Origin: Patescibacteria group bacterium
GTDB taxonomy: Bacteria > Patescibacteriota > UBA1384 > GWA2-35-9 > JBASTP01
NCBI GenBank assembly: GCA_049274945.1
Contig: JBASTP010000009.1
Location: 4,441-68,440 of the forward strand
Direction: 5' to 3'
DNA length: 64,000 bases
Shown here in pieces: positions 20,254 through 42,962 of this stretch (its first letter is position 1; each line of letters starts with the position of its first letter). The position numbers and the translations under genes were made by a program. Below the pieces are notes generated by a model that searched no databases, was not told the DNA's origin, and worked only from the letters and a program-made list of their open reading frames with translations.

Positions 20254-21435
20254 TTAACGCTCGTAGGTTGTGGGTTTCGAGAATGATCCGCTGCCTGAGC
20301 AGCTAGCTTGGGTGAGTTCGACTTGCATGGTGGTGGCGTTCGTTAGCTGGATAAGTAACGATCCGCTGCGGGCGATATTGCCAGAGCCCGGTTGGGCATC
20401 GGTCTGGTAGCAGTACACGGTGCCATCGGGTTTTACCTCACTAAACTCGCGATTGATCGTGCCCTCGTGTTTTGGCATAAACGCAATCTTAGTGGGGCTA
20501 CCAATCACTCCGCCGATCGAAGCAATACCCACTGATGGATCAAAGTTATCGTGAACGAGGGCAATACTTTTATCCCAGTTACCCGGTTGATCAATCAGAT
20601 CGCTGGCTTTTACGCCGGTAATCCAGTCGCCTTGGGCCGTTCCTGGAACGTCCTGGTTCACCTCGCCGCAGCGCGGTTCGATGGTGCGTTTGGTTCGAGA
20701 CGACCCGAGTTTTTCATAGAGTGTGGCTTTAGTGGCTTCGTCAAACAAATCGAGCGGGCACACGAAGTGCAGGGCATCGGAGCGGTAGCGTTTGGGGTTA
20801 GCGTAGGGCTTGCCCGATTGCCGCCGATCAACCGCTTGAATGTCCAGGCCGGTTGCCGTGCCGCCCCCGGCGGTGCCGATGATTTCTCCAGCTTTCATGG
20901 CGTAGTTTAATTGGGCGCGGCAGTAGGTGTAGTCGTCGCCGGGCCGGGGCACCTGGGTATCACACGAGGGCCTCGCGGCTTCAAACGCCGCCTGCAATTG
21001 CGGCGAAATGCTCGTAACGTGGCCAAAGTTTAACCGCACGTCTTTGCACGCGGTAATATCGAGGGCGTAGTCATCGCTCCAAACCGCGCCTTGTTTTTTG
21101 GCGGTATTGTGATTGATCGATTGGACAACAATATCGCCCGGGGCGCGCACGGGCCTATCGTAGGCCGGATCGATGGTGTTGTTTTCTTTAATTACCACGT
21201 AGATGTGGTCGGTGGGGACGGTGTGGTCGGGCGGGCTCAAGTTACCCAGTGGGGTGATCGAAAGAAAATCTGTTGGGGCAATCGGGGAAGCGGTAAACAT
21301 GCCGCCAGGGGCGCACTCTGGCCCACCAATGGTATTTACTAGTTTAGGTGTACGCCGGCGTAGTTCACCGACCACCATCGTAAAAAATACCGCGACCAAG
21401 ATAACAACTAACCCAACGACAATTTTTTTGAGCAT
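20254..21435 (-). CDS. Membrane-anchored/secreted hypothetical protein
   Basis: N-terminal TM MLKKIVVGLVVILVAVFFTMVV; 393 aa, Gly/Thr/Ser-rich extracytoplasmic part; no family recognised. Confidence 0.55.
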   Translation of the reverse strand: MLKKIVVGLVVILVAVFFTMVVGELRRRTPKLVNTIGGPECAPGGMFTASPIAPTDFLSITPLGNLSPPDHTVPTDHIYVVIKENNTIDPAYDRPVRAPGDIVVQSINHNTAKKQGAVWSDDYALDITACKDVRLNFGHVTSISPQLQAAFEAARPSCDTQVPRPGDDYTYCRAQLNYAMKAGEIIGTAGGGTATGLDIQAVDRRQSGKPYANPKRYRSDALHFVCPLDLFDEATKATLYEKLGSSRTKRTIEPRCGEVNQDVPGTAQGDWITGVKASDLIDQPGNWDKSIALVHDNFDPSVGIASIGGVIGSPTKIAFMPKHEGTINREFSEVKPDGTVYCYQTDAQPGSGNIARSGSLLIQLTNATTMQVELTQASCSGSGSFSKPTTYER

Positions 21436-24017: not shown

Positions 24018-24686
24018 ATGCAACGAGTCTTGATTAAGTGGTCTATGACGGTGGTGGTGCTCTTTGTGGCAATGTTGGCATTGTTCAACGTACGGCCCGG
24101 TCTTTTTGCCGACGCTGTCTATCCTCTAAAGTTCAAAAGCGAGATTGTGGCTGCCGCAGAAGAGTTCCACCTACGCCGCACCTTGATCGCCGCGCTGATT
24201 TTCACCGAAAGCCGATTTAAGGAAGGGTGTCCTAAATCAAATCGGGGGGCAATCGGGCTAACCCAAATGCTGCCCTCTACTGCCGCTGGGGTAGCTCAAA
24301 ATCTGGGAGTGGCGGATTTTTCAGTGCAAAAACTCTGTTCTGATCCAAGTCTCGCGATTCGGCTCGGAACGGCTTATTTGCGCTCGGCTTACGACCGGGC
24401 AATTGGCAAGGGTGCAACTCCCGAACTCGCCGAGCGAGTGGCGCTCGCCCACTATAATGGCGGCCCGCGGGCCGCGGACGTGCTGCTTGCGACCAATAAG
24501 ACTGCCGGGCTAGCCAACGAAACAAGGAAGTTTGTGCCTCTTGTGCTCGATCGGGAGAAAGTATATCTCGAACTCTACGGCGATGATTGGGGCGGGGAAG
24601 TGGAAGAACCGTTTGCCTTTAAACCGGGCCAGAACATCTTTAACTTACTTGATCCTAACAAGCTTGCAGCATTTCTAGGTTCGTGA
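24018..24686 (+). CDS. Lytic transglycosylase (SLT domain), membrane anchored
   Basis: ALIFTESRFKEGCPKSNRGAIGLTQMLPSTAAG...AYLRSAYD...ALAHYNGGP. Confidence 0.8.
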   Translation: MQRVLIKWSMTVVVLFVAMLALFNVRPGLFADAVYPLKFKSEIVAAAEEFHLRRTLIAALIFTESRFKEGCPKSNRGAIGLTQMLPSTAAGVAQNLGVADFSVQKLCSDPSLAIRLGTAYLRSAYDRAIGKGATPELAERVALAHYNGGPRAADVLLATNKTAGLANETRKFVPLVLDREKVYLELYGDDWGGEVEEPFAFKPGQNIFNLLDPNKLAAFLGS

Positions 24687-26311
24687 TGACATCGCAAGAT
24701 ATTCGTGACAAATTTGTAGCGTTTTTCAAGGAGAAAGGACACACCGAACTACCTGCTTCTTCGCTCGTACCTACCGATCCATCGGTGCTGTTTACCACTG
24801 CCGGGATGCAGCAATTTAAGGAGTGGTTTGTTAAACCCGAACTCGCCAAGCATAAACGGGTGGTGACGATTCAACCGTGCCTGCGCACCTCGGATATCGA
24901 AGCAGTGGGCGACGAGACTCACCTAACTTATTTTGAAATGCTCGGCAATTTTTCGTTTGGTGTTTACGGTAAAAAAGAAGCCATCGAATATGCGCTCGAA
25001 TGGTTCAGAAAAGATTTCGGAGTTGAGGAATCAATGCTCACTTTTTCTTACTTCGGCGGCGAGGGGGTATTGGAGGAAGATAGCGAATCACGAGCAATAC
25101 TGTTTGACCGGCTCGACCCCAAGTCGATAGAAAAAAAGGGAAGAAGCGACAATTTTTGGGGTCCGACCGGGGATACTGGGCCATGTGGGCCGACCGTAGA
25201 GTTCTATTACAAAGGCATCGAAATTTGGAATCTGGTATTTAATGAATATTTTTTCGACGGGAACAATTATAAAAAACTGGAAAAACTGGGCATCGATACC
25301 GGTGCCGGATTGGAGAGAATTGCAGCGACGTTAAACGGCTTCGAAAGTGTTTTCGAAACCGATGAGCTAAAAGCCCTCTTGGATATACTCCCCGAGGGCG
25401 ACCTGCGCTCGCGGCGGATTATTGTTGACCACGTCCGGGCGATCAACGGTTTGATAGGAGACGGGGTTATACCATCGAACAAAGCCCAGGGCGCGGTGCT
25501 GCGCCGGCTCATTCGCCGCGCGTTTACCCACGGCCGGCTGATTAGCGCGGACGATGATTTAGTAGCACAGTTGGTTAGTAGCACTGTAGCACGGATAGTG
25601 AAAACCGAGGTTGAAAAATTTTCCCAAACTCTGAAACAATCTATGAAAATCTATTCTCGAATTCTCGAGAAATCAAGAAAAGAAATTTCTGGTGAAGATG
25701 CTTTCCTACTCAAGGAAAGTTATGGCTTACCTGTCGAGTTAACGCAGGAATTGGCTCGCAAAGATGGTTATTCTGTTGACATGGCTGGTTTTCAACTTTA
25801 TGAATTAAAACATGTCGAGGCATCTGCCATGAGCTCTCCTGTCAAATTCAAAGGTGGGCTTGTTGAAAGAACCCCGGAAACAACTCGCTTGCACACAGCC
25901 CACCACTTATTACTCGCCGCGTTGCGAAAGGTGCTTGGCGAGCATGTAGTGCAGCGCGGGTCCAATATTACATCTGATCGTCTCCGAATCGATTTCTCAC
26001 ACCCCCGAGGCGTGAAGGAGGAAGAATTACGTAAAGTTGAAAAGTTGGTTAATCAATGGATTAAAGACGATCTTGAAGTTACGCGCGAAGAAATGTCGTT
26101 GCAAGAAGCGTTCAAAAAAGGCGCCCTGGGCGAATTCGGCGCGACCTATCCGGAAAAAGTGAGTGTGTATAGCATTGGTAATCCTCCAGTGTCGGTCGAA
26201 ATTTGCGGCGGGCCTCATGTGACAAAAACATCAGAAATCGGCAAGTTTAGAATAGTGAAAGAAGAATCATCGGGGTCTGGCATTAGACGGATAAGGGCAG
26301 TCCTTGACTAG
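24683..26311 (+). CDS. alaS: Alanine--tRNA ligase, compact form (catalytic + tRNA-recognition + editing domains, no C-Ala domain)
   Basis: FVAFFKEKGHTELPASSLVP...SVLFTTAGMQQFK...RVVTIQPCLRTSDIEAVGDETHLTYFEMLGNFSFG; editing-domain HTAHHLL...ICGGPHV; only 542 aa. Confidence 0.8.
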   Translation: MMTSQDIRDKFVAFFKEKGHTELPASSLVPTDPSVLFTTAGMQQFKEWFVKPELAKHKRVVTIQPCLRTSDIEAVGDETHLTYFEMLGNFSFGVYGKKEAIEYALEWFRKDFGVEESMLTFSYFGGEGVLEEDSESRAILFDRLDPKSIEKKGRSDNFWGPTGDTGPCGPTVEFYYKGIEIWNLVFNEYFFDGNNYKKLEKLGIDTGAGLERIAATLNGFESVFETDELKALLDILPEGDLRSRRIIVDHVRAINGLIGDGVIPSNKAQGAVLRRLIRRAFTHGRLISADDDLVAQLVSSTVARIVKTEVEKFSQTLKQSMKIYSRILEKSRKEISGEDAFLLKESYGLPVELTQELARKDGYSVDMAGFQLYELKHVEASAMSSPVKFKGGLVERTPETTRLHTAHHLLLAALRKVLGEHVVQRGSNITSDRLRIDFSHPRGVKEEELRKVEKLVNQWIKDDLEVTREEMSLQEAFKKGALGEFGATYPEKVSVYSIGNPPVSVEICGGPHVTKTSEIGKFRIVKEESSGSGIRRIRAVLD

Positions 26312-26359
26312 CGTGCTAGTGTGCTATAGTAAACTCATACGCAAGGAAAAGGAAGGGGA

Positions 26360-29300
26360 ATGCTACAACATGCTTGGGAACGGTTGAGGATGAGCGGCCG
26401 AGTGGCGCTCAGGTTGGCGTTGGTCGGTGGTTCGTTTTTATTGTTTACGACACTCCTGGGTATTACGATACCCACTAACGATGCAAGGCAGCTCGGCAAA
26501 GAATCAGCTGCGGAAGACGCCATCACCAGAGATCTCAATGAATTGAACGGCACGCAAACGCTGGTAGAAGGCCAACTGGTTATCAACAAGGAATCTGCCG
26601 CCCCAACGAGCGGCCAGGAAATTCGTAAGTCAATTACCCTTTCGTCCGGCAACACCGTTGATCTCAAAACAAATCAGGATGAGCGTTTCTCAATTATTGA
26701 AGCAAGGCCAGACATCACCACGTTCGCTGCGGCTGGCGGCGGTAGCAGCATCGTGACCTCAACTCCGCCCGAAGCGATACCGGAAAAAATTGATCCTGAG
26801 CTTGTGGCAGAGTTTGAGGCGGGCAGCAAGCAAGAGCCGGTGATTATTGAACTTAACAATATTGAGCCGCCGGAGTCCGGCGACAACTCCCAAGAAGGCA
26901 AGCAGAAAAAAGAAAAGCTCAAGCAGGCTGAGCAGAAACTAGGGAAGACGCTTGGTCGGAGTGGTGATGTCAAACAAGAGCTCGATTTGCAGATCGCGAG
27001 CGCCGTAGCGGCCACGGTTGACAAAAAGGGTCTCGCCAAGCTCACTGCCGATCCTTCGGTCAAGCGCATTGAGTTAGATCGCGAGGTCAAAGCAGTGCTC
27101 GATACCTCACTTGACGAGATCAAGGTTAAGGATGTGTGGCCTTCGTTTGATCGGAACAATCAAACGATGACTGGCGTGGGCAAGCGGGTTGCGATCATTG
27201 ACACCGGCGTTGACTACCGTCACGGCGATTTAGGAGGTTGCCTGGGTGCCAATTGCAAAGTGATCGGCGGGTATGATTTTGTCAACAATGACGCCGATCC
27301 TCTGGATGACCACGGCCACGGCACCCATGTGGCGGCCACCGCGGCTGGCAAGGGCACGTTGAATGGCGTTGCGCCAGATGCCAAGATCCTCGCCTACAAA
27401 GTACTGAACCAGTACGGTTCGGGATCATGGTCTAACGTGATTGCGGCAATCGGGCGAGCGACTGACCCAAACAATGATGGTAATACCGCCGACCACGCTG
27501 ACGTGGCGAATATGAGTTTGGGTGGTTCTGGTAATCCTGATGATGCGATCAGTCGGGCAGTTGATAACTCATCAGCCGTCGGGGTGGTTCATGCGATTGC
27601 CGCCGGCAATTCTGGCTCGAGCCCAAGCACGATCGGGACGCCCGGCACTGCTCGATCCGCCATCACAGTGGCTGCTTCCTGTAAGGCTGCTCAGGTCGGC
27701 GTTTACGGGTACTGTGCCACGCCGATCGCCAGCTTTAGTTCTCGCGGCCCGCTGGTCTGGAACGGCGAGGACATCCAAAAGCCGGACCTTGCCGCGCCCG
27801 GGGTTTACATTTGTGCCGCTTACATTGCCGCCGGCAGCTGTGCGAGCGGTTCTTACACCCGACTGTCCGGCACCTCGATGGCCACGCCTCACGTTGCCGG
27901 GGCCGCTGCCTTAGCTCGGCAGGCCTACCCGGACTATACGCCCGCCCAAATTAAGCAGCTTCTGAAAAGCACGGCGCGTTCGCTCGGCGGCAGCCTAACA
28001 TACAACGATCAAGGCGCTGGCTTGATTGATGTTAAAGCGGCGATTCCAGCCAATACTCAACTGACAGCGAGTCCATTGCGTTGGCAAGCGGTGAGCAACC
28101 CGAGTGTAAAACTTTCGACTTCGGAGCAAACGTTTTCGGTTACCCCAACGGTGCCGGAAATTTCCGCGCTTGCGGTAACCCACACGCTGTCCCAGCCCGG
28201 TATCACGCTGGCGTTTGACACCACCACCCTCCTCGTCTCGGGGCAAGGTAGCGCCACACTCAAGGCAACCGTAATCGTGGACAACGATCTTGTTAAATCC
28301 GGCAGCTACCAAGCCAATATCGTGCTCGCCGAATCCGGCACGACCAAAGGAATTATTCCGATCGACATAACGGTCAAGCCGACGATCACGTTTGGTTCAA
28401 CTGCCGAGATTAACTACACCGTTGATAATCCGAGCCTGACGACCTGGACTTCGCCGATCAAACCGCTGACCATCACCAATCTAAGAGCTGACATTGCCCT
28501 GAGTGTAACGGCTAGCGTGGTTGGTTTCCCTGGTAATGTTACCTTAAAGAGTAACCCATCGCCGATCCTAGTGGGAGCCGGCGCTCAAGCGAGCGTAGAC
28601 ACCTGGCTTGAAGTGGCTAACACCGGACTTGCCAATGGCACCTACCGCGGCAGCGTTAAGTTAGAATCCACTTCTGGTTCAACAATGGTGCCGGCCTCAT
28701 TCACCAAGTTCTATGTTCTGGAGATCAAGGACCCAACCAACTCGATCGTGGGCGGGACGCTCTGGATCCACGACCGCCAAGCCACTCAGTACTCGCGCTC
28801 CATGACCACAAACTCAACCACTCTCTACTTGAATGCCGCCGGCCCCTACGATATCGTGGCGTTCTATCCCCAAGTGTACGACACTGACGGTCGTCATATG
28901 TACACGGTGTTCAAAGAAGGGGTGGGCTTGGCTGCCACCGGCCAGGCGTCGGTCGCGATCAGCCGATCTGACGCCAAAAACGAAGTCAAGCTCGTGCCCA
29001 CTGATTCGGACGGCAACCGGGTTGCAAAGCTTTATGATATGAGCTACGGCATCGTCTATCTGTCCCGTCCAAGTTTGACTTCGTATGGGTCTTTGGCGGG
29101 CAGCGAATTTTCACCCGATGTCACCAAGCACTACTACTCGGATGTGAGCACGAACTACCAGGTTTTCCACCAGTTCATCAACCCGCCCTACACGCCGGCT
29201 GCCAAGGTGCACCTCTACTACGACGGTTTCAAGAGTTTGAGCGGCAACCAAACCACGGCCAACGCCGCCGCAGATTTCAAGAGTCTCCGTCACGAACTTT

Positions 29301-31315
29301 CCGTCAACCGAGCCGATGGTTCAATCGCGCCTCAACTGACAAGCTGCCTCATGTCAATATCCTGTATTGCGAACGGGTCGTATCCTGCCGCCTCACTGCC
29401 TTTGAGTCAAACCTTCTACTCGCTGACGCCGCCGACGCTCGCACCACCCAATGACACGAGGTACTATCTCAGATCAGATATCAATCGCACCGGTTGCGTG
29501 GCCGGCGAGACCTGCCATTCGGCCTTTATCACACCGTGGTTGGATATCATAAACCAAAAACGGCGGCTGTTTGACCCACTGCCCGCAATACAAGATGGCA
29601 CGATCTATAACGGCCTTGGACCGGTTTTTCCGGCAATCAAGTTTTTGAACGCCGCGAGCGGTATCAACCTCTACCCTTATTTTTACGGACCAAGGGCCGC
29701 GTTCTTGCGGCAGGACTACTCGGTCGGCGAGTACGACCCGATTAGCTACCAGATGGTCAACCAGCAGGGCTCGCTGATTTCCCAAGGAACCCTGCCGCGG
29801 CTGTCGCTCACAAGCGGCATTACTCCTTCCACTCCCTATGGCCCATTGCTCAACCTAGCTCCGAGCGGCGGCACTCTGGATTTCAAGATTGACTTGTTTG
29901 GCTACCGGGTTCGCAACCAAGCGATGAAAGCCAAGTTTTCGGCCAAGTTCAACCTTGCCTCAACCGATTCGAACCCGCCGGCGATCAAACGGCTCTACTT
30001 TTTTACGGGCGGCAAGCGCAGCGAACTCTACGAACCGGGATTGAATAACCGTCTCGAATTCGAGCTCGATCCGATCGGCGGCTCGATCACCCAGGCCAAG
30101 GTCTCTTACGCCACCGACGGCGTGAGCTTTACGCCACTGCCGGTGCAAGGCAGCTTTGGCAGCTACGCGGTTGATCTGCCAAACCTTCCGGCTGCGACCA
30201 AGCTGAGCTTGCAGATAGAAGGATCGGATGCGGCTGCGAACAGCTTGAGTTACACCTTCGAGTTGCCGGCCAACCTCGACCAGATCAAGCCGACCACTCG
30301 ATTCAGCAACCTCTTAGCCAACGCTTACTTATCCAAGATCGCCAGCATTATTGCCTCGGCAAGCGACGATCGCGGCATCGCCAAAGTTGAGCTCTACCGC
30401 TCGAGCGTGCTGATTGGTAGCAAGGCCGAGCCGCCCTTCGAGATTCCTTGGGACACTCGGGCGGTAACCGATGGCAGCTACACTTTGCAGCTCAAAGCGT
30501 ACGACGGCGCGGGCAACACTGCCACGGCCGACCTTGCTGTTACCGTTGACAACACCCCGCCGATCATCTACCAAATCAGCCAGCCGGGCGATACGTTAAC
30601 CAAGGGCGTGGCCGAGCTCGTTACCAGCTACTACGATCGGTTCGGGGTCACTAAGGTTGAGTATGACATTGACGGCGCCTACCACGGCCGAGCCACAGCC
30701 TTCCCCTGGATTGTCTATTGGGATACTCGCTCGCTTGCGAGCGGCTCGAGCCACTCGATTGTGTCTAAGGTCTACGACTATGCGGGCAATGTTTCGACCT
30801 CACCGGCTAAGCGAGTAACAGTGTATGATGCGCTACCGATCGTTTCGCCGCCGTCATCACCGGCCCCTGCTCCAGCTCCGCCGCCATCAGTCCCTTCGAG
30901 GAGTGCTCCGTCAGGAGAATCAAGACCGTCCCAACCATCGCCAAGCCAACCGGCGGCAGACGCACCAGCTCCGTCTCAACCCCAACAAGTTTCAGGCGGT
31001 CCGGCACCTGCTCCAGCACCGCCGCCAGCTCCGCCGCGTAAGCTCCGGCCGCTCAACAAAAAAGACCAGCGGCTTAAGTCCACGATCGAGCGTCAGCTCA
31101 AGAGCGCGGAAGGCCAAGTAAGCAAGTTCGAGGGACAACTTGGCGGTTTTCGCGCCAAGGAAGCCCAGCTTGCCGGCCAGCCGCAAACAGGCCGAGTCGC
31201 TCGTCAACTTCGTTCGGTGAGATCGAGTATCTCTCGGGCCGAACAAAGTTTAAACGCCGCCCGCGCCAAACGGTCTGAAGTCAGCTCTCGATTCGATAAG
31301 TTGATTTATTATTGA
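26360..31315 (+). CDS. Giant secreted subtilisin-like serine protease (peptidase S8) with long beta-rich extension, Pro-rich linker and C-terminal coiled-coil tail
   Basis: Catalytic triad blocks VAIIDTGVDYRH (Asp), DDHGHGTHVAATAAG (His), LSGTSMATPHVAGAAALARQ (Ser); N-terminal TM/signal; PPSSPAPAPAPPPSVPS...PAPAPAPPPAPP linker; 1651 aa. Confidence 0.85.
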   Translation: MLQHAWERLRMSGRVALRLALVGGSFLLFTTLLGITIPTNDARQLGKESAAEDAITRDLNELNGTQTLVEGQLVINKESAAPTSGQEIRKSITLSSGNTVDLKTNQDERFSIIEARPDITTFAAAGGGSSIVTSTPPEAIPEKIDPELVAEFEAGSKQEPVIIELNNIEPPESGDNSQEGKQKKEKLKQAEQKLGKTLGRSGDVKQELDLQIASAVAATVDKKGLAKLTADPSVKRIELDREVKAVLDTSLDEIKVKDVWPSFDRNNQTMTGVGKRVAIIDTGVDYRHGDLGGCLGANCKVIGGYDFVNNDADPLDDHGHGTHVAATAAGKGTLNGVAPDAKILAYKVLNQYGSGSWSNVIAAIGRATDPNNDGNTADHADVANMSLGGSGNPDDAISRAVDNSSAVGVVHAIAAGNSGSSPSTIGTPGTARSAITVAASCKAAQVGVYGYCATPIASFSSRGPLVWNGEDIQKPDLAAPGVYICAAYIAAGSCASGSYTRLSGTSMATPHVAGAAALARQAYPDYTPAQIKQLLKSTARSLGGSLTYNDQGAGLIDVKAAIPANTQLTASPLRWQAVSNPSVKLSTSEQTFSVTPTVPEISALAVTHTLSQPGITLAFDTTTLLVSGQGSATLKATVIVDNDLVKSGSYQANIVLAESGTTKGIIPIDITVKPTITFGSTAEINYTVDNPSLTTWTSPIKPLTITNLRADIALSVTASVVGFPGNVTLKSNPSPILVGAGAQASVDTWLEVANTGLANGTYRGSVKLESTSGSTMVPASFTKFYVLEIKDPTNSIVGGTLWIHDRQATQYSRSMTTNSTTLYLNAAGPYDIVAFYPQVYDTDGRHMYTVFKEGVGLAATGQASVAISRSDAKNEVKLVPTDSDGNRVAKLYDMSYGIVYLSRPSLTSYGSLAGSEFSPDVTKHYYSDVSTNYQVFHQFINPPYTPAAKVHLYYDGFKSLSGNQTTANAAADFKSLRHELSVNRADGSIAPQLTSCLMSISCIANGSYPAASLPLSQTFYSLTPPTLAPPNDTRYYLRSDINRTGCVAGETCHSAFITPWLDIINQKRRLFDPLPAIQDGTIYNGLGPVFPAIKFLNAASGINLYPYFYGPRAAFLRQDYSVGEYDPISYQMVNQQGSLISQGTLPRLSLTSGITPSTPYGPLLNLAPSGGTLDFKIDLFGYRVRNQAMKAKFSAKFNLASTDSNPPAIKRLYFFTGGKRSELYEPGLNNRLEFELDPIGGSITQAKVSYATDGVSFTPLPVQGSFGSYAVDLPNLPAATKLSLQIEGSDAAANSLSYTFELPANLDQIKPTTRFSNLLANAYLSKIASIIASASDDRGIAKVELYRSSVLIGSKAEPPFEIPWDTRAVTDGSYTLQLKAYDGAGNTATADLAVTVDNTPPIIYQISQPGDTLTKGVAELVTSYYDRFGVTKVEYDIDGAYHGRATAFPWIVYWDTRSLASGSSHSIVSKVYDYAGNVSTSPAKRVTVYDALPIVSPPSSPAPAPAPPPSVPSRSAPSGESRPSQPSPSQPAADAPAPSQPQQVSGGPAPAPAPPPAPPRKLRPLNKKDQRLKSTIERQLKSAEGQVSKFEGQLGGFRAKEAQLAGQPQTGRVARQLRSVRSSISRAEQSLNAARAKRSEVSSRFDKLIYY

Positions 31316-31376: not shown

Positions 31377-33017
31377 ATGGATCAAGAATACAAATACGAC
31401 TATTTGATTTTAGGAACGGGCATGTCGGCGCTCACCGCCGGCGCGCTGCTGGCGAACGCCGGTTATAAAGTGTGCATGCTCGAAGCCCACGACATTCCCG
31501 GCGGTTACGCCCAATCGTTCAAATGGGGCGATTTTTACTTTTGCGGCCAGGTGCACTACATTTGGGGGTGCGGCCCGGGCGGCAAAATCAACACGTTTCT
31601 TAAAAAGCTCGGCCTGGAAAACGATATCACCTTTGAGCTCTACGACATCAATGGTTACGATCGGGTGGGTTTGCCGGATGGCAAGATTGTTTCCATCCCC
31701 AACGGTTTTGACGAACTGGCCGAAAATATTGAAAAAGCCTACCCCGGCCAAAAGGCCAACGTCCAAAAGTTTACCAAAACTTTGCTCGATATTCGCGCGG
31801 AACTGCGCCGGATTCCCGACCGTAAAATTGCCTGGTGGGAATATGTAACCAAAATCTGGGGGTTCCCCAATCTCATAAAATACCGCAACAGTACGCTCCA
31901 AGATATCTTTGACGAATGTAAGCTAAGTCCGGAGGCCCAGGCCGTCCTGGCAGGCAACGCCGGCGATTTTATGCTGCCTCCCAAAGAGCTTTCGATTTTT
32001 CCCTACGCGGCGCTGTTTTGCGGCTACAATGGCGGCGCCTACTACCCAACTAAACATTATAAATACATGATCGATCGGATCGCCCAATCGATCACCGGGC
32101 ACCGCGGCTGCCACATTTTCTACGAAACGCTCGTGACGAAAATCAATGTTGAGGGCGATCGGGTAACGAGCGTCGAAACGCAAGATGGCCGAACCTTTAC
32201 CGCGCGAACCATTATTTGCAACATCGATCCCAAAGCCGCCGCCAAGATGATTGGATATGATAAACTCCCAGCCCGTTACACGCGCAAACTCAACTATACC
32301 TACTCGGGTTCTTCACTTATGGTGTACCTTGCGCTCAAGGATATCGATCTCGTGAAATCCGGTTTGGGCCGGTGGAACTTGTGGCACCTTGGCCAGTGGG
32401 ATGTTAATAAAATCTGGGATGATCAGAAAAAGGGCGACTTTAGCCACCCGTGGTTTTTTATGTCAACACCTACCTTGCATTCCAAAGCCCCCGGCACCGC
32501 GCCTGCCGGACATGAGATTGTTGAGATTGCCACCTATACTGAGCACGTAGACTGGAAGGCGCTCCACGATCAAGATTACAAGGCCTACGAAGCCAAAAAA
32601 AATGCCTTGGTTGAAAAGCTCCTTGATATTATTGAAGCACGCTATATCCCTAATATCCGCAAACACATCGTGGTTAAGCTTCCCGGCAGTCCTACCTCCA
32701 ACGAAGAGTGGGCGTGGGCGCCCATGGGCAACGCCTATGGGCAAACCATGACGCCCAAAGAAATCGGCATCCGCCGTTTTCCCATGGATACGCCGTTTAC
32801 CAACTTCTACTTTTGCAATGCCACGGCCGGCTATGCCAGCATCTACGCCACGGTCGGTAATGGCATCAGCCTCTATGCCAAACTGACCGGCGATGATTTT
32901 TACCACCTCTCCGATGGTCCGACCGACGAGGAGTTTGCTGCTCAAGCACGAGCAATGAGTTCGGCGGCCCGTTTACCAGATCGCGCCGCTCCCTCGGTCC
33001 AAGGAGCGTTCAAGTAG
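31377..33017 (+). CDS. FAD-dependent oxidoreductase, phytoene-desaturase/amine-oxidase family (CrtI-like)
   Basis: YDYLILGTGMSALTAGALLANAGYKVCMLEAHDIPGGYA dinucleotide-binding N-terminus; 546 aa. Confidence 0.75.
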   Translation: MDQEYKYDYLILGTGMSALTAGALLANAGYKVCMLEAHDIPGGYAQSFKWGDFYFCGQVHYIWGCGPGGKINTFLKKLGLENDITFELYDINGYDRVGLPDGKIVSIPNGFDELAENIEKAYPGQKANVQKFTKTLLDIRAELRRIPDRKIAWWEYVTKIWGFPNLIKYRNSTLQDIFDECKLSPEAQAVLAGNAGDFMLPPKELSIFPYAALFCGYNGGAYYPTKHYKYMIDRIAQSITGHRGCHIFYETLVTKINVEGDRVTSVETQDGRTFTARTIICNIDPKAAAKMIGYDKLPARYTRKLNYTYSGSSLMVYLALKDIDLVKSGLGRWNLWHLGQWDVNKIWDDQKKGDFSHPWFFMSTPTLHSKAPGTAPAGHEIVEIATYTEHVDWKALHDQDYKAYEAKKNALVEKLLDIIEARYIPNIRKHIVVKLPGSPTSNEEWAWAPMGNAYGQTMTPKEIGIRRFPMDTPFTNFYFCNATAGYASIYATVGNGISLYAKLTGDDFYHLSDGPTDEEFAAQARAMSSAARLPDRAAPSVQGAFK

Positions 33018-34276
33018 TCCCCGGCGAAGTAGATCCCTCCCTCGCCTTGGTGGTGGCGGGTAAAATTACTGACCACGGAAACAGTGCCATGTTCGAATGT
33101 TGGCATAGCGGCCGGCCAGCGAACTAGATCGTGAAAGAAGACTTCTTTTGATCGCTCGCGAGCTTCCGGACAAACTGTGAATAACGCTCGTCGTACAATC
33201 CGATTAATCTCCTGATCACTTTTCTTAAGGAGTTGCTGGGCCGCTTCGTCGTGGAGATAAACATTAAGGAGAGTGTGATTGTCTCGCACTAACTCTTGGC
33301 CTTTTCGGCCCTCAAAAATACAGCAGCTGATGATTTGGTTTTCCACAAACGGGACATAGATGCACTGGGTGGTGTCGGAGAATAGATCGAGCGGGACGCG
33401 GTATGACAGCACAATGCTAGCGGCGTACTTACTTGCTTTAAGCATGGTTTTTTGGGCAGCGGTTGGGTTTGAGAGTAGTCTTAGCGCCGCCGGCGCCGGG
33501 CACGCCAACACCACCGCCGAAAAGTGCTCGTCTTTTCCATCTATTCGGATTCGACACTCGTTTTTGATTGAACTAACGCCCTCGATTTTAGCTCGATATC
33601 GGACGGTAAGTTTTCTGGCTAATGCTTTGGGAATCGCTGACATCCCGCCCCTCGGATGCCGGGCAGTGAAGTTGCCTTTTGTTTTCATCATGGTAAGCAT
33701 ACCAAAGACAACCGCGGTGCTCATCGCAGCGGACCGGTAGAAATGGAGGGCGGCGGTAAGGGGATCAATGAGATAATCAACCACCTCATCGCCCATCTCT
33801 CGCCGGAGGTAGCTGCCCGCCGGCTCAAAATCCAAGGTCGGCCGGATCGTTGAGAGATCAAAAAAATTGCCCGGGCCCGATCGAAATAGGCTTTTGAGCA
33901 GCCATTTCACAAGACGGAGCCGAGCAGGCAACGAAATAACATTCAGCCGAAAAACACCCAAGGGGCCGCGCGCGCCGTAGCGGTAGGTTTTGCCGCTACG
34001 GATTACCCGATGGCGGCTGCCCGATATCATCGGAGTTAATGCAACACCGAACTCCGCCGCATAGGATTTCAGCTGATGGTAATCCTCGCTCAAAAAGGTC
34101 GCCCCTGGATTGAACTGGAAGCCGTTTTTGAAGCGCGTTGCCATACGACCGCCAGGGACTCCGGTTTTTTCATAAACCACCACGGTAAAACCAGCATTTT
34201 TTAGCTCATAAGCCGCGGTAAGCCCGGCAATGCCTGCGCCAATTACCGCTACTCGAGTTTCCGCGTGTTGCTTCAT
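32942..34276 (-). CDS. FAD-dependent oxidoreductase, amine-oxidase/protoporphyrinogen-oxidase-like
   Basis: RVAVIGAGIAGLTAAYELKNAGFTVVVYEKTGVPGGRMAT; 3' end overlaps the preceding gene by ~75 nt. Confidence 0.75.
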   Translation of the reverse strand: MKQHAETRVAVIGAGIAGLTAAYELKNAGFTVVVYEKTGVPGGRMATRFKNGFQFNPGATFLSEDYHQLKSYAAEFGVALTPMISGSRHRVIRSGKTYRYGARGPLGVFRLNVISLPARLRLVKWLLKSLFRSGPGNFFDLSTIRPTLDFEPAGSYLRREMGDEVVDYLIDPLTAALHFYRSAAMSTAVVFGMLTMMKTKGNFTARHPRGGMSAIPKALARKLTVRYRAKIEGVSSIKNECRIRIDGKDEHFSAVVLACPAPAALRLLSNPTAAQKTMLKASKYAASIVLSYRVPLDLFSDTTQCIYVPFVENQIISCCIFEGRKGQELVRDNHTLLNVYLHDEAAQQLLKKSDQEINRIVRRALFTVCPEARERSKEVFFHDLVRWPAAMPTFEHGTVSVVSNFTRHHQGEGGIYFAGDYLNAPWTEGAARSGKRAAELIARA

Positions 34277-35449: not shown

Positions 35450-35776
35450 ATGATATCGATCATAACCAAGTATCGGCATAGGCGTCGAAGACAAGTCAGT
35501 GCGCAAATCAATTTTCCACCGGATCAATACCAAGGCCCCTGGATATGGAATAAGGTGGTTGGAGCATTTCTGGTTGCGGTTGCGGGGGCGCTTCTTTTCA
35601 ATTACTTTTTGCCATGGTCCATCATAACGTTTTTTTTGGAACCTCTCCGATATCCAATCGCATACGTAGCTCGCGTGTGCGATTTTTGTTATTTGCATTA
35701 TCAGCAGAGTAGTGTCAATATATATCTTGACCTTGCAGTTGGTCTCGCCCTTAAACAATTGACGGGAGATGATTAA
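35450..35776 (+). CDS. Small 2-3-TM membrane protein (cassette copy 1)
   Basis: QGPWIWNKVVGAFLVAVAGALLFNYFLPW parallels YGFWTWDRIFFGLLVASVGSLITLFFGPYW in 38015..38356. Confidence 0.5.
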   Translation: MISIITKYRHRRRRQVSAQINFPPDQYQGPWIWNKVVGAFLVAVAGALLFNYFLPWSIITFFLEPLRYPIAYVARVCDFCYLHYQQSSVNIYLDLAVGLALKQLTGDD

Positions 35777-36884
35777 TATGTTTTTGCCCGGTGAATCGCA
35801 ATTGCTCGACGTAATGACTCGTGTTGCCGCTCAGAAGGATCATGGGATTGGCCACGTCCTGCGCGTTGGCTGCTACGTTCGGCTGATTATGGAAAAGACA
35901 GGGGGCTTTACGCCGGAAGCTTGTGAGCGAGTAGAGATGATTGCCCGCATCCACGACATTGGCAACACCGTGATCCTCGATACGATCCTGGATAAACAAG
36001 ACCCTCTAATCGATTGGGAACGATTGGAAATTGCCCAACATTCGGTAGCCGGTTGTGAAATGTTAGGCAATGTTTTTCATGAATTTTTGCCAATGATCCG
36101 CCACCATCATGAAAATTGGGACGCGAGCGGTTATCCCGATCACCTGGCTGGCGAACGAATTCCGCCTATGGCCCGGATTCTGCGGATGGCTGACGCCTTT
36201 GACGCCATGACCAGTTGGCGGCCGTACCGCATAAATCCGATCAATGTTGATCAAGCTATCCAGCAATTAAGAACCAAAGCCGGAATCGAGTTTGACCCAA
36301 AGCTCGTGCCAGTATTTGCGGACCAGGTTGATAAAATCAGCGCCATCATCAAGTGGATAGGCAATAGTACGCCACTCCATCATGACAGTCGTCTGGCGAT
36401 TGACTTTAACGTTATTGCTGGAGGGGCGGCCCTTACTGACGCATGGCATAGTAAGAGCCATGCGTTCCTAAATTTTCCGGAGAATCCCGGCGTGGTTGAC
36501 TTGCTTCGGGAACTTTCCTGCCGCTACTTCCGGGGTTGGGTTTTTATCTGGCCAAACTCGTCGAGAGAATGGAATGATCACAAGCAAGACCAGTGGTTAC
36601 GCCACCACCATGTTTTCGATCGCGCCTGCATTGCAAATTGGTCACTGGACTATTATATGTGTAATGTTGTTACAGCGTGCCGAGATTCGGCAATCTCACA
36701 CTTCATCGGATATGATCCAGAAACCCTCAAAAAACTATTGGGAATAGTGCCGAACTTATACCTTTTCAGACGAGATTCACTTCGCATCCCTGTCGACTTA
36801 AGGATTAAGGTTGCTAACTCAACCCAGCAACTCACTAATTCGATCATCCAACCCTGGCCCATGGCAATTCCTCCAGAGGCGTAA
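35769..36884 (+). CDS. HD-GYP domain protein (c-di-GMP phosphodiesterase family) with uncharacterised ~170-aa C-terminal domain
   Basis: HDIGNTVI ... HHHENWDASGYPDHLAGERIPPMARILRMADAFDAMTSWRPYR is the HD-GYP signature. Confidence 0.8.
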   Translation: MINMFLPGESQLLDVMTRVAAQKDHGIGHVLRVGCYVRLIMEKTGGFTPEACERVEMIARIHDIGNTVILDTILDKQDPLIDWERLEIAQHSVAGCEMLGNVFHEFLPMIRHHHENWDASGYPDHLAGERIPPMARILRMADAFDAMTSWRPYRINPINVDQAIQQLRTKAGIEFDPKLVPVFADQVDKISAIIKWIGNSTPLHHDSRLAIDFNVIAGGAALTDAWHSKSHAFLNFPENPGVVDLLRELSCRYFRGWVFIWPNSSREWNDHKQDQWLRHHHVFDRACIANWSLDYYMCNVVTACRDSAISHFIGYDPETLKKLLGIVPNLYLFRRDSLRIPVDLRIKVANSTQQLTNSIIQPWPMAIPPEA

Positions 36885-36992
36885 CGCCACGACGCCCAAG
36901 CACCTTTACGGTGCTCTTTTTTGTCCTCTCAGGCGTACATAGAGGCGTACATACGATTTTTATCCCGCTCGTCGGGTAAGAAACCCCAAAGA

Positions 36993-37760
36993 CACTTCCG
37001 AAGTGGGAATAGGTTACACATTGGTACATTTTTGACAATTGTTGTATGTTAGACTTATGGCACGCCGAAAAGAAATACTCGCAACCGGAGAAATTTACCA
37101 TGTGTTCAATAGGTCGATAGACAATAAAACTATTTTCAACTCCTCAATAGAGTTAAACCGCTTTTTGAATTTAATAAGGTTCTATGGATGTCTCAGGCCA
37201 ATCCGATTCTCTAAATTAACCGTCCAGCAACGAGAACTAATGATCAAGAAAAACGGTGGCGAGCCAATTGTTGAAATCATCTGTTATTGCTTGATGCCTA
37301 ATCATTTTCACTTATTGCTTAAACAGCTAAATGAAGGAGGCATTACCTCTTTTTTACGAAAAATCAGTGATGGATACAGTCGTTACTTTAATCTCATTCA
37401 TCACCGTGCTGGACCATTATTTCAAAACAATTTTAAAGCAGTCAGAATAGCTACTAACGAACAATTGCTCCATGTTTCTCGATACATTCATCTTAACCCT
37501 CTCACTGCCTATTTAGTTAATAATCTTGACGACTATCGTTGGTCTTCTTACCACGAATATATTAGCAGTAGTGACCTGAGGAATAGTGATTTCACCTGCA
37601 ACAAGAAATTAATTCTGGATCAATTCAAAAAGAAGTCCGGTTATCGAGCATTTGTGTTAGACAATGCGAATTACCAGAAAAAGTTAAAGGAAATCCAATA
37701 TCTTCTTATCGAGAATCCGACATAATTACCGAAGTGACACCTGAAGACACTTCGGAAGTG
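36993..37760 (+). mobile_element. REP-associated tyrosine transposase (RAYT) unit: gene plus flanking CACTTC(C/G)GAAGTG palindromes
   Basis: Palindrome CACTTCCGAAGTG at 36993..37005; hairpin CCGAAGTG-acacctgaaga-CACTTCGG at 37729..37756 immediately after the stop; AT-rich gene. Confidence 0.55.
37039..37725 (+). CDS. IS200/IS605-like Y1 HUH transposase of the RAYT (TnpA-REP) type
   Basis: HUH motif CYCLMPNHFHLLLK and catalytic-Tyr motif SRYIHLNPLTAYLV (compare E. coli RAYT HMHCIW / YIYINPVKHGWV). Confidence 0.8.
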   Translation: MLYVRLMARRKEILATGEIYHVFNRSIDNKTIFNSSIELNRFLNLIRFYGCLRPIRFSKLTVQQRELMIKKNGGEPIVEIICYCLMPNHFHLLLKQLNEGGITSFLRKISDGYSRYFNLIHHRAGPLFQNNFKAVRIATNEQLLHVSRYIHLNPLTAYLVNNLDDYRWSSYHEYISSSDLRNSDFTCNKKLILDQFKKKSGYRAFVLDNANYQKKLKEIQYLLIENPT

Positions 37761-37798
37761 TCCGGAATCACCAGGATCAGCATTCGCGCTTCTGCGGC

Positions 37799-37827
37799 TT
37801 GCATTTAGCCTGGAAATTGGTTACAGT
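37799..37827 (+). promoter_or_regulatory. Conserved sigma70-like promoter of cassette copy 2 (TTGCAT-17-TACAGT)
   Basis: Shares the GCATTTAGCCT core and downstream CTGAAAAA / GAAAGTGA blocks with copy 1. Confidence 0.4.
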
Positions 37828-37879
37828 GTGTGGGCAATCAACCTGAAAAATAGAAAGTGAGGTATTCCTAGTGGGCGAG

Positions 37880-38005
37880 ATGCAATGGAACCGGGAACAC
37901 GGTGTCTTGGGGACGCTGCTCCTGGGCTTCTTGAGCCTTATTTGGTTTTCTGCGTACGAGATTTACTGCTATCTTGTACCGCGCGGTGGTAATAACCGGA
38001 GGTGA
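37880..38005 (+). CDS. 41-aa hydrophobic micropeptide (cassette copy 2)
   Basis: MQWNREHGVLGTLLLGFLSLIWFSAYEIYCYLVPRGGNNRR; paralog of 35322..35444. Confidence 0.45.
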   Translation: MQWNREHGVLGTLLLGFLSLIWFSAYEIYCYLVPRGGNNRR

Positions 38006-39696: not shown

Positions 39697-41271
39697 ATGG
39701 ACGATTTTATTTACCTAGAACCAGACGAAGAGATCCCGACCATCCTCAAGAAGCTCAAAAAGAGCGCCAGCGAGTCGGTGGGATTGGTGGTGCCGCGCGG
39801 CTCGATCACCCTGCAGTCGGCGATCAATTTAAAGCTCCTCAAGCAAGAAGCGGTGAAGCTCGGCAAGGACATTGCGATTGTTACGGCAGATTCAATCGGC
39901 CAGCACCTGGCGGCGCAAGCCGGGCTCACGGTGTTTGAGTCGGTTAAAAGCAACCAGCCGATTGCGATGCGCAAGCGCGCGAGTGAGGATGAGCCAAAAT
40001 TGGGCGAGCCGGCCGAGCAAAAGCAAAATGGCCCGGCTGGCGTAAACGTCCGCCACTTCCAGACGGAAACCATTGAGCCTGAAAAACAGTATGTTGAGCC
40101 CGAGCGCACCCACGCACCGCTACCGGCCCGCCGGCGGGTAAAGGGAGCCGTGGTGGTGGCCATCGCCCTGGTTGTTCTCCTTCTTTATACCTTTATTGTG
40201 CCGCGCGTCACGATTACCGTGGAGGTGCTCGGCGAGCCGCTCGAGCGGGAGCTCACCTTGAGCGCGGCAACGGTTTCAGGCGCCGGCGAACAGGTGGTTC
40301 CGGCGACGCTCGAGGAGGCCACCAAGGAGCGAACCCAGACGTTCAAAACCACCGGCCAAAAGAACGTGGGCGAAAAGACCAAGGGCACGATCACCTTAAA
40401 TAACGCGTGGTCTTCCGATAATGTGTCGCTTGCCGCTGGCACTAAGCTCACGAGCAATGGGATAGCGTTTCGGCTCACCCAGGCGGTAATAATCCCGGGG
40501 GCATCGGTGAGTTTGGTGGCCGGCCAGGCCCAAACCAACCCGGGCAAAATCGACGGCGCGATCGAGGCCGAGGGATCGGGCGAAGCCGGCAACGTTGCGC
40601 CGGGCAAGTTCACCATTACCTCAATTGAAGCGATTAAACAAAGCAAGATCTACGGCGAGTCAACCACCAAACTCACCGGCGGCTCATCGCGGTTCATTGG
40701 CGTGGTGTCCGAGGAAGATCTGAAAACCGCCCGCACCACCCTCGAAGGCGAACTCAAAAACGAGCTCAAGGAAAGTATTGTCAGTAAAGCCGCCGGCCGC
40801 ATTGCGCTCGATCAAGCGGTCAAGCTCGAACAAATTGACGAGAAATCAAGTAAGCAAGTGGATGAGGAAGCGGGAGAGTTCGAACTCAAGCTCAAGGGTA
40901 ACCTCAAGGCGATTGTTTTTACCGAAGAAGATTTCCGCAAAGCATTCTTAAACGATCTAGCGCAGGAGATAGGCGAGGACCACGAGGTGGTGTTTGGGCC
41001 GTCAGACGAAATCACCACCACGGTAGAGGAAGCTGATTTTGAGAATGGCCGGCTCCAGTTGCGGGGGTTACTGAAAAGTCAGATCGCGCCCAAAATTGAC
41101 CAAGCGCAGTTAAAACAGACGATTCGTTTTAAGTCGTTCCCGGGCACCGAAAAAATCATCCGCGATTTGCCGCAAGTCAGCAATGTCGAAATCAGCATCT
41201 CACCGCGCGCTTCCCTTAAGCGGATTCCGCTTTTGCCCACCAACGTGAAGTTCGATATCAAGCATAAATAA
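39697..41271 (+). CDS. Bitopic membrane protein of unknown function (cytoplasmic N-domain, one TM, large extracytoplasmic domain) in the division/wall cluster
   Basis: TM VVVAIALVVLLLYTFIV around residue 150; no tubulin GGGTGTG motif, so not FtsZ. Confidence 0.55.
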   Translation: MDDFIYLEPDEEIPTILKKLKKSASESVGLVVPRGSITLQSAINLKLLKQEAVKLGKDIAIVTADSIGQHLAAQAGLTVFESVKSNQPIAMRKRASEDEPKLGEPAEQKQNGPAGVNVRHFQTETIEPEKQYVEPERTHAPLPARRRVKGAVVVAIALVVLLLYTFIVPRVTITVEVLGEPLERELTLSAATVSGAGEQVVPATLEEATKERTQTFKTTGQKNVGEKTKGTITLNNAWSSDNVSLAAGTKLTSNGIAFRLTQAVIIPGASVSLVAGQAQTNPGKIDGAIEAEGSGEAGNVAPGKFTITSIEAIKQSKIYGESTTKLTGGSSRFIGVVSEEDLKTARTTLEGELKNELKESIVSKAAGRIALDQAVKLEQIDEKSSKQVDEEAGEFELKLKGNLKAIVFTEEDFRKAFLNDLAQEIGEDHEVVFGPSDEITTTVEEADFENGRLQLRGLLKSQIAPKIDQAQLKQTIRFKSFPGTEKIIRDLPQVSNVEISISPRASLKRIPLLPTNVKFDIKHK

Positions 41272-42686: not shown

Positions 42687-42962
42687 ATGAAAACCGCCAA
42701 GTTGCCCTCGTTTTTCCAATCAATTTTTTGGGACACCCGGCTTGCAAATATTGACTACAAAAAACATTCCCGCTATGTGATCGAGCGTGTGCTCCAGTGG
42801 GGCAGGCCCCAGCACGTACGCTGGCTACTCGGCCACTATTCGAAACGCATGATTTTGCATGTGGCAAAAACCGGGCGGGAAGTCCGCCCAGAGCGCAAAT
42901 ATTTCTGGAAGTTCTATTTAACTCACCAACGAAAAAAACGAACAAAATTATATGCACACTGA
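42687..42962 (+). CDS. Small basic hypothetical protein, candidate partner (antitoxin/regulator) of the AbiEii-like gene
   Basis: 91-aa ORF directly upstream of, and overlapping by 11 nt, the AbiEii-like gene; no family recognised; AT-rich. Confidence 0.4.
   Translation: MKTAKLPSFFQSIFWDTRLANIDYKKHSRYVIERVLQWGRPQHVRWLLGHYSKRMILHVAKTGREVRPERKYFWKFYLTHQRKKRTKLYAH

What the first reader, a model, noticed from the sequence alone, without database searches (positions are those of the whole stretch)
26360..31315. A 1651-aa surface subtilase with Pro-rich stalk and coiled-coil tail
The catalytic S8 domain (D/H/S blocks intact) occupies roughly residues 270-560. It is followed by about 900 aa of beta-rich repeats (VTVDNTPPIIYQ, Ig-like), a PAPAPAPPP stalk and a basic coiled-coil C-terminus. 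A protease on a long stalk fits a surface weapon or nutrient-acquisition role. It is immediately followed by three FAD oxidoreductases.
Basis: partly seen in the sequence, partly recalled or inferred. Interest (0 to 1): 0.5.

Follow-up and report, generated by a model that had tools for sequence, protein, structure and literature searches.

The report
Giant exported subtilisin-like protease, ordinary kind
This gene encodes a very large but otherwise conventional exported subtilisin-type protease from an ultra-small (Patescibacteria/Berkelbacteria-like) bacterium. It is already annotated in public databases, and only an undescribed 520-residue beta block and a basic helical tail are mildly new.

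Summary
ORF 26360-31315 (+) encodes 1651 aa with a Pfam Peptidase_S8 domain (aa 276-554, E 9e-55). Its D281/H320/S506 align residue for residue with the published triad of Bacillus Vpr, and N417 aligns with the Asn of the GNSG block.

Collinear homologs of 1400-1800 aa rule out an assembly artefact. The identical protein is already in NCBI as [quoted passage not shown].

Anatomy:
- one N-terminal hydrophobic segment
- a pro-region, weakly I9-like
- the catalytic domain, with three invariant Cys pairs and no PA insert
- two homologous Vpr-type beta-sandwich domains
- a 520-aa all-beta block with no Pfam or PDB sequence relative (AF2 pLDDT about 92)
- two Big_7 Ig domains
- a 71-aa, 37% Pro disordered linker
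- a 90-aa basic (pI 11.2) antiparallel helical hairpin

The hairpin occurs only in the closest (Berkelbacteria-like) clade and was found on no other protein. It is deleted in a 78%-identical relative.

The three flavoprotein genes downstream are real but not conserved neighbours.

Best reading: a Sec-exported, self-activating extracellular protease that probably feeds the cell. Tail-mediated surface retention is inference only. This is a new member of a known kind, of low to moderate interest.

The parts
26343..26359 (+). Purine-rich Shine-Dalgarno-like stretch (aaggaaaaggaagggga) directly before the ATG
   Evidence: Read directly from the sequence. The promoter and terminator scan of the region found no more sites than chance.
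26360..31315 (+). Whole ORF of 1651 aa plus stop: pre-pro-subtilase
   Evidence: An identical protein, P0001, is named 'S8 family serine peptidase [Patescibacteria group bacterium]' by NCBI.
26360..26494 (+). N-terminal export signal or signal-anchor (aa 1-45). Four Arg are followed by the only hydrophobic segment of the protein, aa 19-37.
   Evidence: Kyte-Doolittle scan with a 19-aa window. The segment is present in all 14 aligned homologs. No SignalP-type tool was available, so cleavage was not tested.
26495..27154 (+). Acidic pro-region (aa 46-265, pI 4.7). Its C-terminal part resembles the I9 propeptide.
   Evidence: phmmer aligns aa 141-265 with the pro-region of Vpr and aa 201-265 with that of pro-subtilisin E (3whi). 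Pfam Inhibitor_I9 reaches only E 0.066, below the cutoff.
27155..28039 (+). Catalytic Peptidase_S8 domain (aa 266-560) with D281, H320, N417 and S506, and Cys pairs 294/299, 441/452 and 485/494. There is no PA-domain insert.
   Evidence: Pfam E 9e-55. The residues are invariant. D281/H320/S506 align with Vpr D186/H230/S531. The Vpr alignment splits in two at the Vpr insert (chain 369-464), which has no counterpart here.
28040..28732 (+). Two tandem, mutually homologous beta-sandwich domains (aa 564-674 and 675-791) of the type that follows the catalytic domain in Vpr and plant SBT3
28733..30286 (+). Family-specific all-beta block of 518 aa (aa 792-1309) with no family annotation. Conserved motifs include GLGP (aa 1085-1088), FLRQDY (around Q1118) and D-P-N-P-P (aa 1203-1207; here DSNPP).
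   Evidence: AF2 pLDDT is mostly above 90. No Pfam hit appears in any of 12 members at E<=1 beyond four single-member weak hits (best E 0.027). A profile search found no PDB sequence match at E<=10. There are no internal repeats. The block is conserved across the family.
30287..30829 (+). Two bacterial Ig domains (Big_7; aa about 1310-1400 and 1401-1490)
30830..31042 (+). Pro-rich, predicted disordered linker (aa 1491-1561; 26 Pro in 71 aa; PAPAPAPPP at aa 1501 and 1548)
   Evidence: pLDDT is 42-54. The only DNA tandem repeat is a 12-nt unit in 2.1 copies at 31013-31037.
31043..31312 (+). Basic C-terminal helical hairpin (aa 1562-1651): helices 1567-1605 and 1611-1649, net charge about +12, pI 11.2, ending in DKLIYY

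Best explanation
The gene encodes a catalytically competent, Sec-exported pre-pro-subtilase of the pyrolysin/Vpr type.

Inferred life cycle:
1. The N-terminal hydrophobic segment (aa 19-37) targets the chain to the Sec machinery.
2. The acidic pro-region (aa 46-265, I9-like at its end) assists folding and blocks the active site, and is then cut off autocatalytically. This would also detach the enzyme from its N-terminal membrane segment.
3. The mature enzyme of about 1390 aa carries the D281/H320/S506 active site on a long, rigid all-beta body. That body consists of two Vpr-type sandwich domains, a 520-aa family-specific block and two Ig domains.
4. A flexible Pro-rich spacer and a strongly basic helical hairpin end the chain.

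The most likely job is degrading external protein into peptides for a small-genome Patescibacteria cell. The hairpin may keep the enzyme near the cell, by ionic binding to anionic envelope polymers or by pairing with a partner or with itself.

Shown: the ORF, an intact S8 active site, the domain anatomy, family conservation and the clade-restricted tail. Inferred: export, autoprocessing, broad specificity, the nutritional role and the function of the tail.
For: - S8 domain well above the Pfam cutoff.
- Triad and Asn417 invariant, with the triad aligned to the experimentally defined Vpr triad.
- One N-terminal hydrophobic segment and no other.
- Three invariant Cys pairs, typical of extracytoplasmic proteins. 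One homolog is flanked by DsbD and thioredoxin genes.
- The pro-region aligns with the Vpr and subtilisin E propeptides.
- The post-catalytic domains match those of Vpr and SBT3.
- Ig domains, Pro-rich linker and hairpin are modelled with the confidence pattern expected: ordered, disordered, ordered.
- The tail is about as conserved as the rest of the protein (48% against 51% overall to P0004). Its length, charge and terminal motif persist at 27-29% identity.
- More than 100 collinear homologs exist.
- SecA and peptidoglycan genes lie in the same window.
Against: - No signal-peptide predictor was available, and no clear AXA cleavage site follows the hydrophobic segment (sequence).
- Inhibitor_I9 is below the Pfam threshold.
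- No known wall-, membrane- or S-layer-anchoring domain or sortase motif is present.
- The hairpin is deleted in a 78%-identical relative whose gene is otherwise intact, so it cannot be essential for enzyme function.
- Nothing in the gene neighbourhood is conserved enough to indicate substrate or pathway.
- No peptide transporter is adjacent to the gene. The one candidate seen, an SBP_bac_5-like ORF, is 25 kb away and is a weak hit.
Confidence: 0.6

Rival explanations
1. The enzyme is released, not surface-tethered. It acts as a soluble or self-assembling extracellular protease. The Vpr-type sandwich domains, the hairpin or both would drive oligomer or fibril formation, as reported for Bacillus Vpr, concentrating activity around the cell without a true anchor.
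For: - The best PDB relative by both sequence and fold is Vpr. The two post-catalytic 'assembly domains' of Vpr build enzymatically active fibrils (PMC10657474).
- The query has two such domains in tandem.
- No anchoring motif was found.
- Antiparallel hairpins commonly mediate oligomerisation; prefoldin-like matches appear.
- Loss of the tail in P0003 is tolerated.
Against: - Only about 127 residues superpose on Vpr, at 17% identity.
- The Vpr fibril contacts were not examined here.
- Most of the 900-aa extension has no counterpart in Vpr.
- No multimer prediction was possible.
Confidence: 0.2
2. It is a dedicated processing or interaction protease. It would either mature the cell's own surface proteins (pili, S-layer) or attack host or partner cell surfaces in an episymbiotic lifestyle. 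The long beta body would serve as a substrate- or host-binding arm.
For: - The top NCBIfam hit is the T7SS maturation protease mycosin.
- About 1000 aa of conserved beta-sandwich and Ig domains resemble adhesin architecture.
- The family occurs in CPR and DPANN lineages, groups that on my own knowledge are often symbiotic.
Against: - The mycosin score is 128 bits against a cutoff of 278.75, and there is no C-terminal TM anchor.
- The same architecture is common in Pyrinomonadaceae and other Acidobacteriota, which on my own knowledge are free-living.
- There is no conserved neighbouring substrate or secretion-system gene.
Confidence: 0.15
3. It is an artefact or a dead gene: an ORF inflated by mis-assembly, or a pseudo-protease that serves only as a structural or adhesive protein.
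For: None found.
Against: - Full-length collinear homologs come from independent assemblies: 1652, 1643, 1682 and 1684 aa.
- The triad and oxyanion-hole Asn position are invariant.
- Composition is even across the ORF.
- There is only one trivial 12-nt tandem repeat.
Confidence: 0.02

Closest known systems
Vpr, the minor extracellular serine protease of Bacillus (PDB 8JMW; pyrolysin-type S8A subtilase)
   Same: - Pre-pro organisation and an aligned catalytic triad.
- A beta-sandwich domain directly after the catalytic domain.
- Extracellular.
   Different: - Vpr is about 800 aa and has an insert domain in the catalytic domain (chain 369-464), for which the query has no counterpart.
- Vpr lacks the 520-aa block, the Big_7 pair, the Pro-rich linker and the basic hairpin.
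- Fibril formation is shown for Vpr only (PMC10657474).
Lactococcal cell-envelope proteinase PrtP/lactocepin and streptococcal relatives (ScpA, SpyCEP). This comparison rests on my own knowledge of the family.
   Same: - A very large pre-pro-S8 enzyme whose catalytic domain is followed by several beta-sandwich domains.
- Near the C-terminus, a helical segment and a Pro-rich wall-spanning spacer.
- A nutritional role in an auxotrophic cell.
   Different: - No LPXTG sortase signal and no C-terminal hydrophobic segment.
- No PA insert.
- The order is spacer then helices, not helices then spacer.
- The NCBIfam LPXTG-anchored S8 model SGO_0316 scores 58 bits against a cutoff of 1400.
Tk-SP of Thermococcus kodakarensis (PDB 3AFG), and pyrolysin-like archaeal subtilases
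   Same: Second-best PDB sequence match (E 1e-44) across the pro-region and catalytic domain. These are extracellular subtilases with a C-terminal beta domain.
   Different: Tk-SP is 539 aa in the crystal construct, with a single jelly-roll domain. It has none of the long extension or the tail.
Mycosin (type VII secretion-associated S8 protease, TIGR03921)
   Same: Top NCBIfam hit to the catalytic domain (E 3.8e-37).
   Different: The score of 128 bits is below the cutoff of 278.75. There is no C-terminal membrane anchor. No T7SS genes appeared among the neighbours and large window ORFs scanned with Pfam.

Membership tests
Peptidase family S8 (subtilases), subfamily S8A | Significant match to the Peptidase_S8 profile over the whole catalytic domain | tested here: met
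   PF00082 E 9e-55, 186.4 bits against a cutoff of 21.8, profile positions 5-288 of 288.
Peptidase family S8 (subtilases), subfamily S8A | Catalytic triad in the order Asp-His-Ser, plus the oxyanion-hole Asn, in the conserved motifs DTG, HGTH, GNSG and GTSMA | tested here: met
   D281, H320, N417 and S506 are invariant in 14 homologs. D281/H320/S506 align with Vpr D186/H230/S531.
Peptidase family S8 (subtilases), subfamily S8A | Proteolytic activity and autoprocessing of the propeptide | not testable with these tools
   This needs expression and an S506A control. Only sequence similarity to the Vpr and subtilisin E pro-regions and a sub-threshold I9 hit are available.
Pyrolysin/Vpr-type large subtilases | Closest relatives are pyrolysin-group enzymes, and a beta-sandwich domain is packed directly after the catalytic domain | tested here: met
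   [not shown]
Pyrolysin/Vpr-type large subtilases | Large insert (PA domain) within the catalytic domain. This is common in the group but not universal. | tested here: not met
   The alignment to Vpr breaks into two pieces around chain residues 369-464, with no matching query sequence. There is no PA Pfam hit.
Sortase-anchored cell-envelope proteinases (PrtP, ScpA, SGO_0316 type) | C-terminal LPXTG motif followed by a hydrophobic segment and a basic tail | tested here: not met
   The C-terminus is ...SRFDKLIYY. There is no hydrophobic window beyond aa 37 apart from one at aa 477-495, inside the Peptidase_S8 match. NF040553 scores 58 bits against a cutoff of 1400.
Mycosin (T7SS) | Score above the TIGR03921 cutoff, and a C-terminal TM anchor | tested here: not met
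   128.2 bits against 278.75. There is no C-terminal hydrophobic segment.
Anti-phage S8 peptidases (IteS/IetS) | Score above the curated family cutoff; a partner IetA/IteA ATPase next door | tested here: not met
   NF042956 scores 32 bits against a cutoff of 900. PADLOC IetS reaches only 45.8 bits, on the generic S8 core. The neighbours are AlaRS and flavoproteins.
Kexin/furin-type proprotein convertases (S8B) | P-domain after the catalytic domain | tested here: not met
   No P_proprotein hit at E<=0.1. The domain after the catalytic core is of the Vpr/SBT3 type.

The most novel reading that the evidence does not exclude
The 520-aa all-beta block (aa 792-1309) would be an undescribed domain family that defines a distinct lineage of giant subtilases. 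That lineage is shared patchily by Patescibacteria, DPANN archaea and Acidobacteriota. The Pro-rich spacer plus basic helical hairpin ending in D-[KR]-L-[IL]-Y would be a previously unrecognised, sortase-independent way of holding an enzyme on the envelope of Berkelbacteria-like cells.
Probability: 0.15. Interest if true: 0.45.

Novelty: new member of a known kind. Interest (0 to 1): 0.25.

Why it matters
Large exported proteases are one plausible way for small-genome Patescibacteria to obtain amino acids. A cell-associated protease would therefore bear on how these uncultivated cells feed or interact with partners.

The practical value here is modest:
- a clean domain map of a protein that databases label only "S8 family serine peptidase"
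- a conserved 520-residue block lacking any family annotation
- a clade-specific basic hairpin tail that could be tested as an envelope-binding or oligomerisation module

None of this changes what is understood about subtilases.

Tried and rejected
1. Tail modularity.
- The search for homologous proteins with the 102-aa tail returned nothing, not even the parent protein. The same tool returned nothing for the block profile A5. Because the self-hits were missing, I treat both as uninformative rather than negative.
- The exhaustive representative search with the 92-aa tail found only P0004 (same family) and P0121. P0121 is a repetitive, eukaryote-like coiled-coil protein, and I judged it a chance match.
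- A tail HMM run against six-frame ORFs of the window and of loci L001-L004 hit only the subtilases.

2. Naming the 520-aa block.
- Foldseek gave only generic multi-Ig strings at TM below 0.2.
- A profile search against PDB sequences found nothing at E<=10.
- Pfam on 12 members found nothing credible.
- The afdb50 library was unavailable.

3. Taxonomic spread in named genomes.
- A single-protein scan of genome contigs found no close relative.

4. Operon structure. The promoter and terminator scan gave counts equal to shuffled expectation.

5. Functional link to the flavoproteins. I rejected this because the adjacency is kept only in the 78%-identical relative and is lost in L001-L003.

6. Literature. 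Searches for CPR or Berkelbacteria subtilases found nothing specific.

7. Defence-system, mycosin, kexin and LPXTG-CEP memberships. All were rejected on curated cutoffs or missing motifs.

Full report
**Observation.** A purine-rich Shine-Dalgarno-like stretch precedes it at 26343-26359. GC content is even across it. The only DNA tandem repeat inside it is a 12-nt unit in 2.1 copies within the Pro-rich linker.

**Is it a real, intact subtilase?** Pfam Peptidase_S8 covers aa 276-554 over the full profile (E 9e-55, 186 bits, cutoff 21.8).
- The signature blocks are at D281 (DTG), H320 (HGTH), N417 (AAGNSG) and S506 (GTSMA).
- All four residues are invariant in a 14-sequence alignment. That alignment spans Berkelbacteria, Pyrinomonadaceae, Woesearchaeota and Nanoarchaeota homologs.
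- In the phmmer alignment to Bacillus Vpr (8JMW), D281, H320 and S506 fall on chain residues 186, 230 and 531. These are the catalytic triad named in the Vpr structure paper (PMC10657474).
- The pseudo-protease scenario is therefore rejected.
- The assembly-error scenario is also rejected. Independent assemblies encode collinear proteins of 1652 aa (76% identity), 1643 aa (51%) and 1682/1684 aa (38%).
- The identical sequence is already public as [quoted passage not shown] (P0001).

**Anatomy, N to C.**
- *aa 1-45.* Four arginines are followed by the only hydrophobic segment of the protein, aa 19-37. The one other window above threshold (aa 477-495) lies inside the Peptidase_S8 match.
- *aa 46-265.* An acidic pro-region (pI 4.7). 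Its last roughly 120 residues align with the propeptides of Vpr and pro-subtilisin E. Pfam Inhibitor_I9 reaches only E 0.066.
- *aa 266-560.* The catalytic domain. It has three invariant Cys pairs: 294/299, 441/452 and 485/494. It has no counterpart of the Vpr insert domain, because the alignment splits around Vpr 369-464.
- *aa 792-1309.* A 518-aa all-beta block modelled at pLDDT mostly above 90. It is conserved through the whole family, with motifs such as GLGP, FLRQDY and DPNPP. It has no internal repeats. No Pfam hit appeared in 12 members, and no PDB sequence relative at E<=10 with a profile. Fold matches were only generic, single-domain ones.
- *aa 1491-1561.* A linker of 71 aa with 26 Pro. 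It holds both PAPAPAPPP copies and is modelled as disordered.

It overstates the repetition.

**The tail.**
- It is restricted to the closest clade: P0002, P0004, P0018 and P0023, the last two Berkelbacteria-like. Pyrinomonadaceae and other homologs carry extra Ig domains instead.
- Within that clade its length (90-98 aa), net charge (+12 to +14), pI (10.8-11.8) and terminal D-[KR]-L-[IL]-Y persist even at 27-29% identity. Against P0004 it is as conserved (48%) as the whole protein (51%). This suggests it is under selection.
- However, a 78%-identical relative (P0003, locus L004) has lost about 190 nt encoding most of the hairpin. The gene and its neighbours are otherwise intact. The tail is therefore not needed for the enzyme itself.
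- I found it on no other protein. Searches covered the 64-kb window, about 60 kb of related loci and 1.84 billion cluster representatives. The one extra hit in the last search was a repetitive coiled-coil protein judged a chance match.
- Two word-indexed searches returned nothing at all, not even the parent protein, so they are uninformative.

**Context.**
- Upstream on the same strand are an SLT transglycosylase gene and a short AlaRS gene.
- Downstream are a CrtI-like flavoprotein (+), a PPO/HpnE-like flavoprotein (-, overlapping the former by 76 nt) and a YpdA/TrxR-like reductase (+). The "three FAD oxidoreductases" are real.
- Only the closest relative keeps subtilase, then amine oxidase, then TrxR-like.
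- The 51% homolog has unrelated neighbours. The 38% homologs are flanked by DsbD and thioredoxin genes.
- I therefore see no functional coupling.
- The rest of the window consists of housekeeping genes of a peptidoglycan-bearing bacterium: SecA, PBP2, MreB/MreC, tRNA synthetases and others.

**Mechanism.**
- *Shown:* an intact S8 active site on a protein with one N-terminal hydrophobic segment, conserved cysteine pairs and a long, confidently folded beta extension.
- *Inferred from established subtilase biology:* Sec export; propeptide-assisted folding followed by autocleavage, which would also sever the enzyme from its N-terminal segment; and extracellular proteolysis.
- I think the most likely role is nutritional. 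This rests on general knowledge that Patescibacteria have reduced biosynthetic capacity. It also rests on the same architecture being frequent in Acidobacteriota, which I take to be free-living.
- The basic hairpin behind a flexible Pro-rich spacer is the only candidate for keeping the mature enzyme at the cell. That step is speculative, at roughly 0.3.
- *Rivals:* a released or self-assembling enzyme in the manner of Vpr fibrils, and a dedicated processing or partner-attacking protease.

**Comparison with known families.**
- It is a member of family S8A, and by nearest relatives and post-catalytic domain it belongs with the pyrolysin/Vpr group.
- It works like a cell-envelope proteinase of lactic acid bacteria, but it is not one. 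It has no LPXTG motif, no C-terminal hydrophobic segment and no PA insert, and it scores far below the curated cutoff.
- It is not a mycosin (128 against 278.75 bits), not an IteS/IetS defence peptidase and not a kexin.

**Verdict.** This is a new member of a known kind and is already annotated generically in public data. The mildly new elements are the unannotated 520-aa block shared by a patchily distributed lineage of giant subtilases, and a clade-specific basic hairpin tail of unknown role. Interest 0.25.

Noticed in passing
window 24683-26311 (+): The alanyl-tRNA synthetase ORF is only 542 aa (tRNA-synt_2c plus tRNA_SAD). It has a GTG start that overlaps the preceding SLT transglycosylase gene (24018-24686) by 4 nt.
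   Followed up: no
window 31377-33017 (+) and 32942-34276 (-): Two convergent flavoprotein genes overlap by 76 nt at their 3' ends. One is CrtI/carotenoid-isomerase-like and the other PPO/HpnE-like. Both score far below NCBIfam equivalog cutoffs, so their substrates are unknown.
   Followed up: partly
window 35769-37725, GC 0.446 in 36001-38000: An HD-domain ORF and an IS200/Y1-transposase-like ORF lie in a low-GC stretch. Together with the minus-strand PPO-like gene, they are absent from the otherwise syntenic relative L004. This looks like an insertion.
   Followed up: partly
window 42952-43575 (+): An AbiEii-type nucleotidyltransferase toxin-like ORF (type IV toxin-antitoxin/abortive infection) sits between the YceG and MreB genes.
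   Followed up: no
window 57352-59652 (+); L002 298-2883, L003 127-2712: The window has a 766-aa protein with an F5/8 type C (discoidin) domain. An 861-aa F5/8-type-C protein, followed by methyltransferase and GT2 genes, lies just upstream of the subtilase homolog in L002 and L003.
   Followed up: no
window 8162-9775, 16165-17886, 20254-21435 (-), 39697-41271: Four ORFs of 393-573 aa have no Pfam hit. Two of them (20254-21435 and 39697-41271) also have no NCBIfam hit. The last has a syntenic 515-aa counterpart after the FtsA-like gene in L004.
   Followed up: no
homologs P0006-P0016, P0091, P0114: Pyrinomonadaceae/Acidobacteriota homologs (38-43% identity) are at least as close to the query as other Berkelbacteria homologs (38%). 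Woesearchaeota and Nanoarchaeota also carry the architecture. This patchy, cross-domain distribution suggests lateral transfer.
   Followed up: partly
L002 10405-11994, L003 10234-11823: DsbD-like and thioredoxin-domain genes lie immediately downstream of the subtilase homolog P0023. This is consistent with disulfide formation in the exported, Cys-pair-bearing enzyme.
   Followed up: no
window 48491-49987 (+): The lysyl-tRNA synthetase is of the class I type (tRNA-synt_1f).
   Followed up: no
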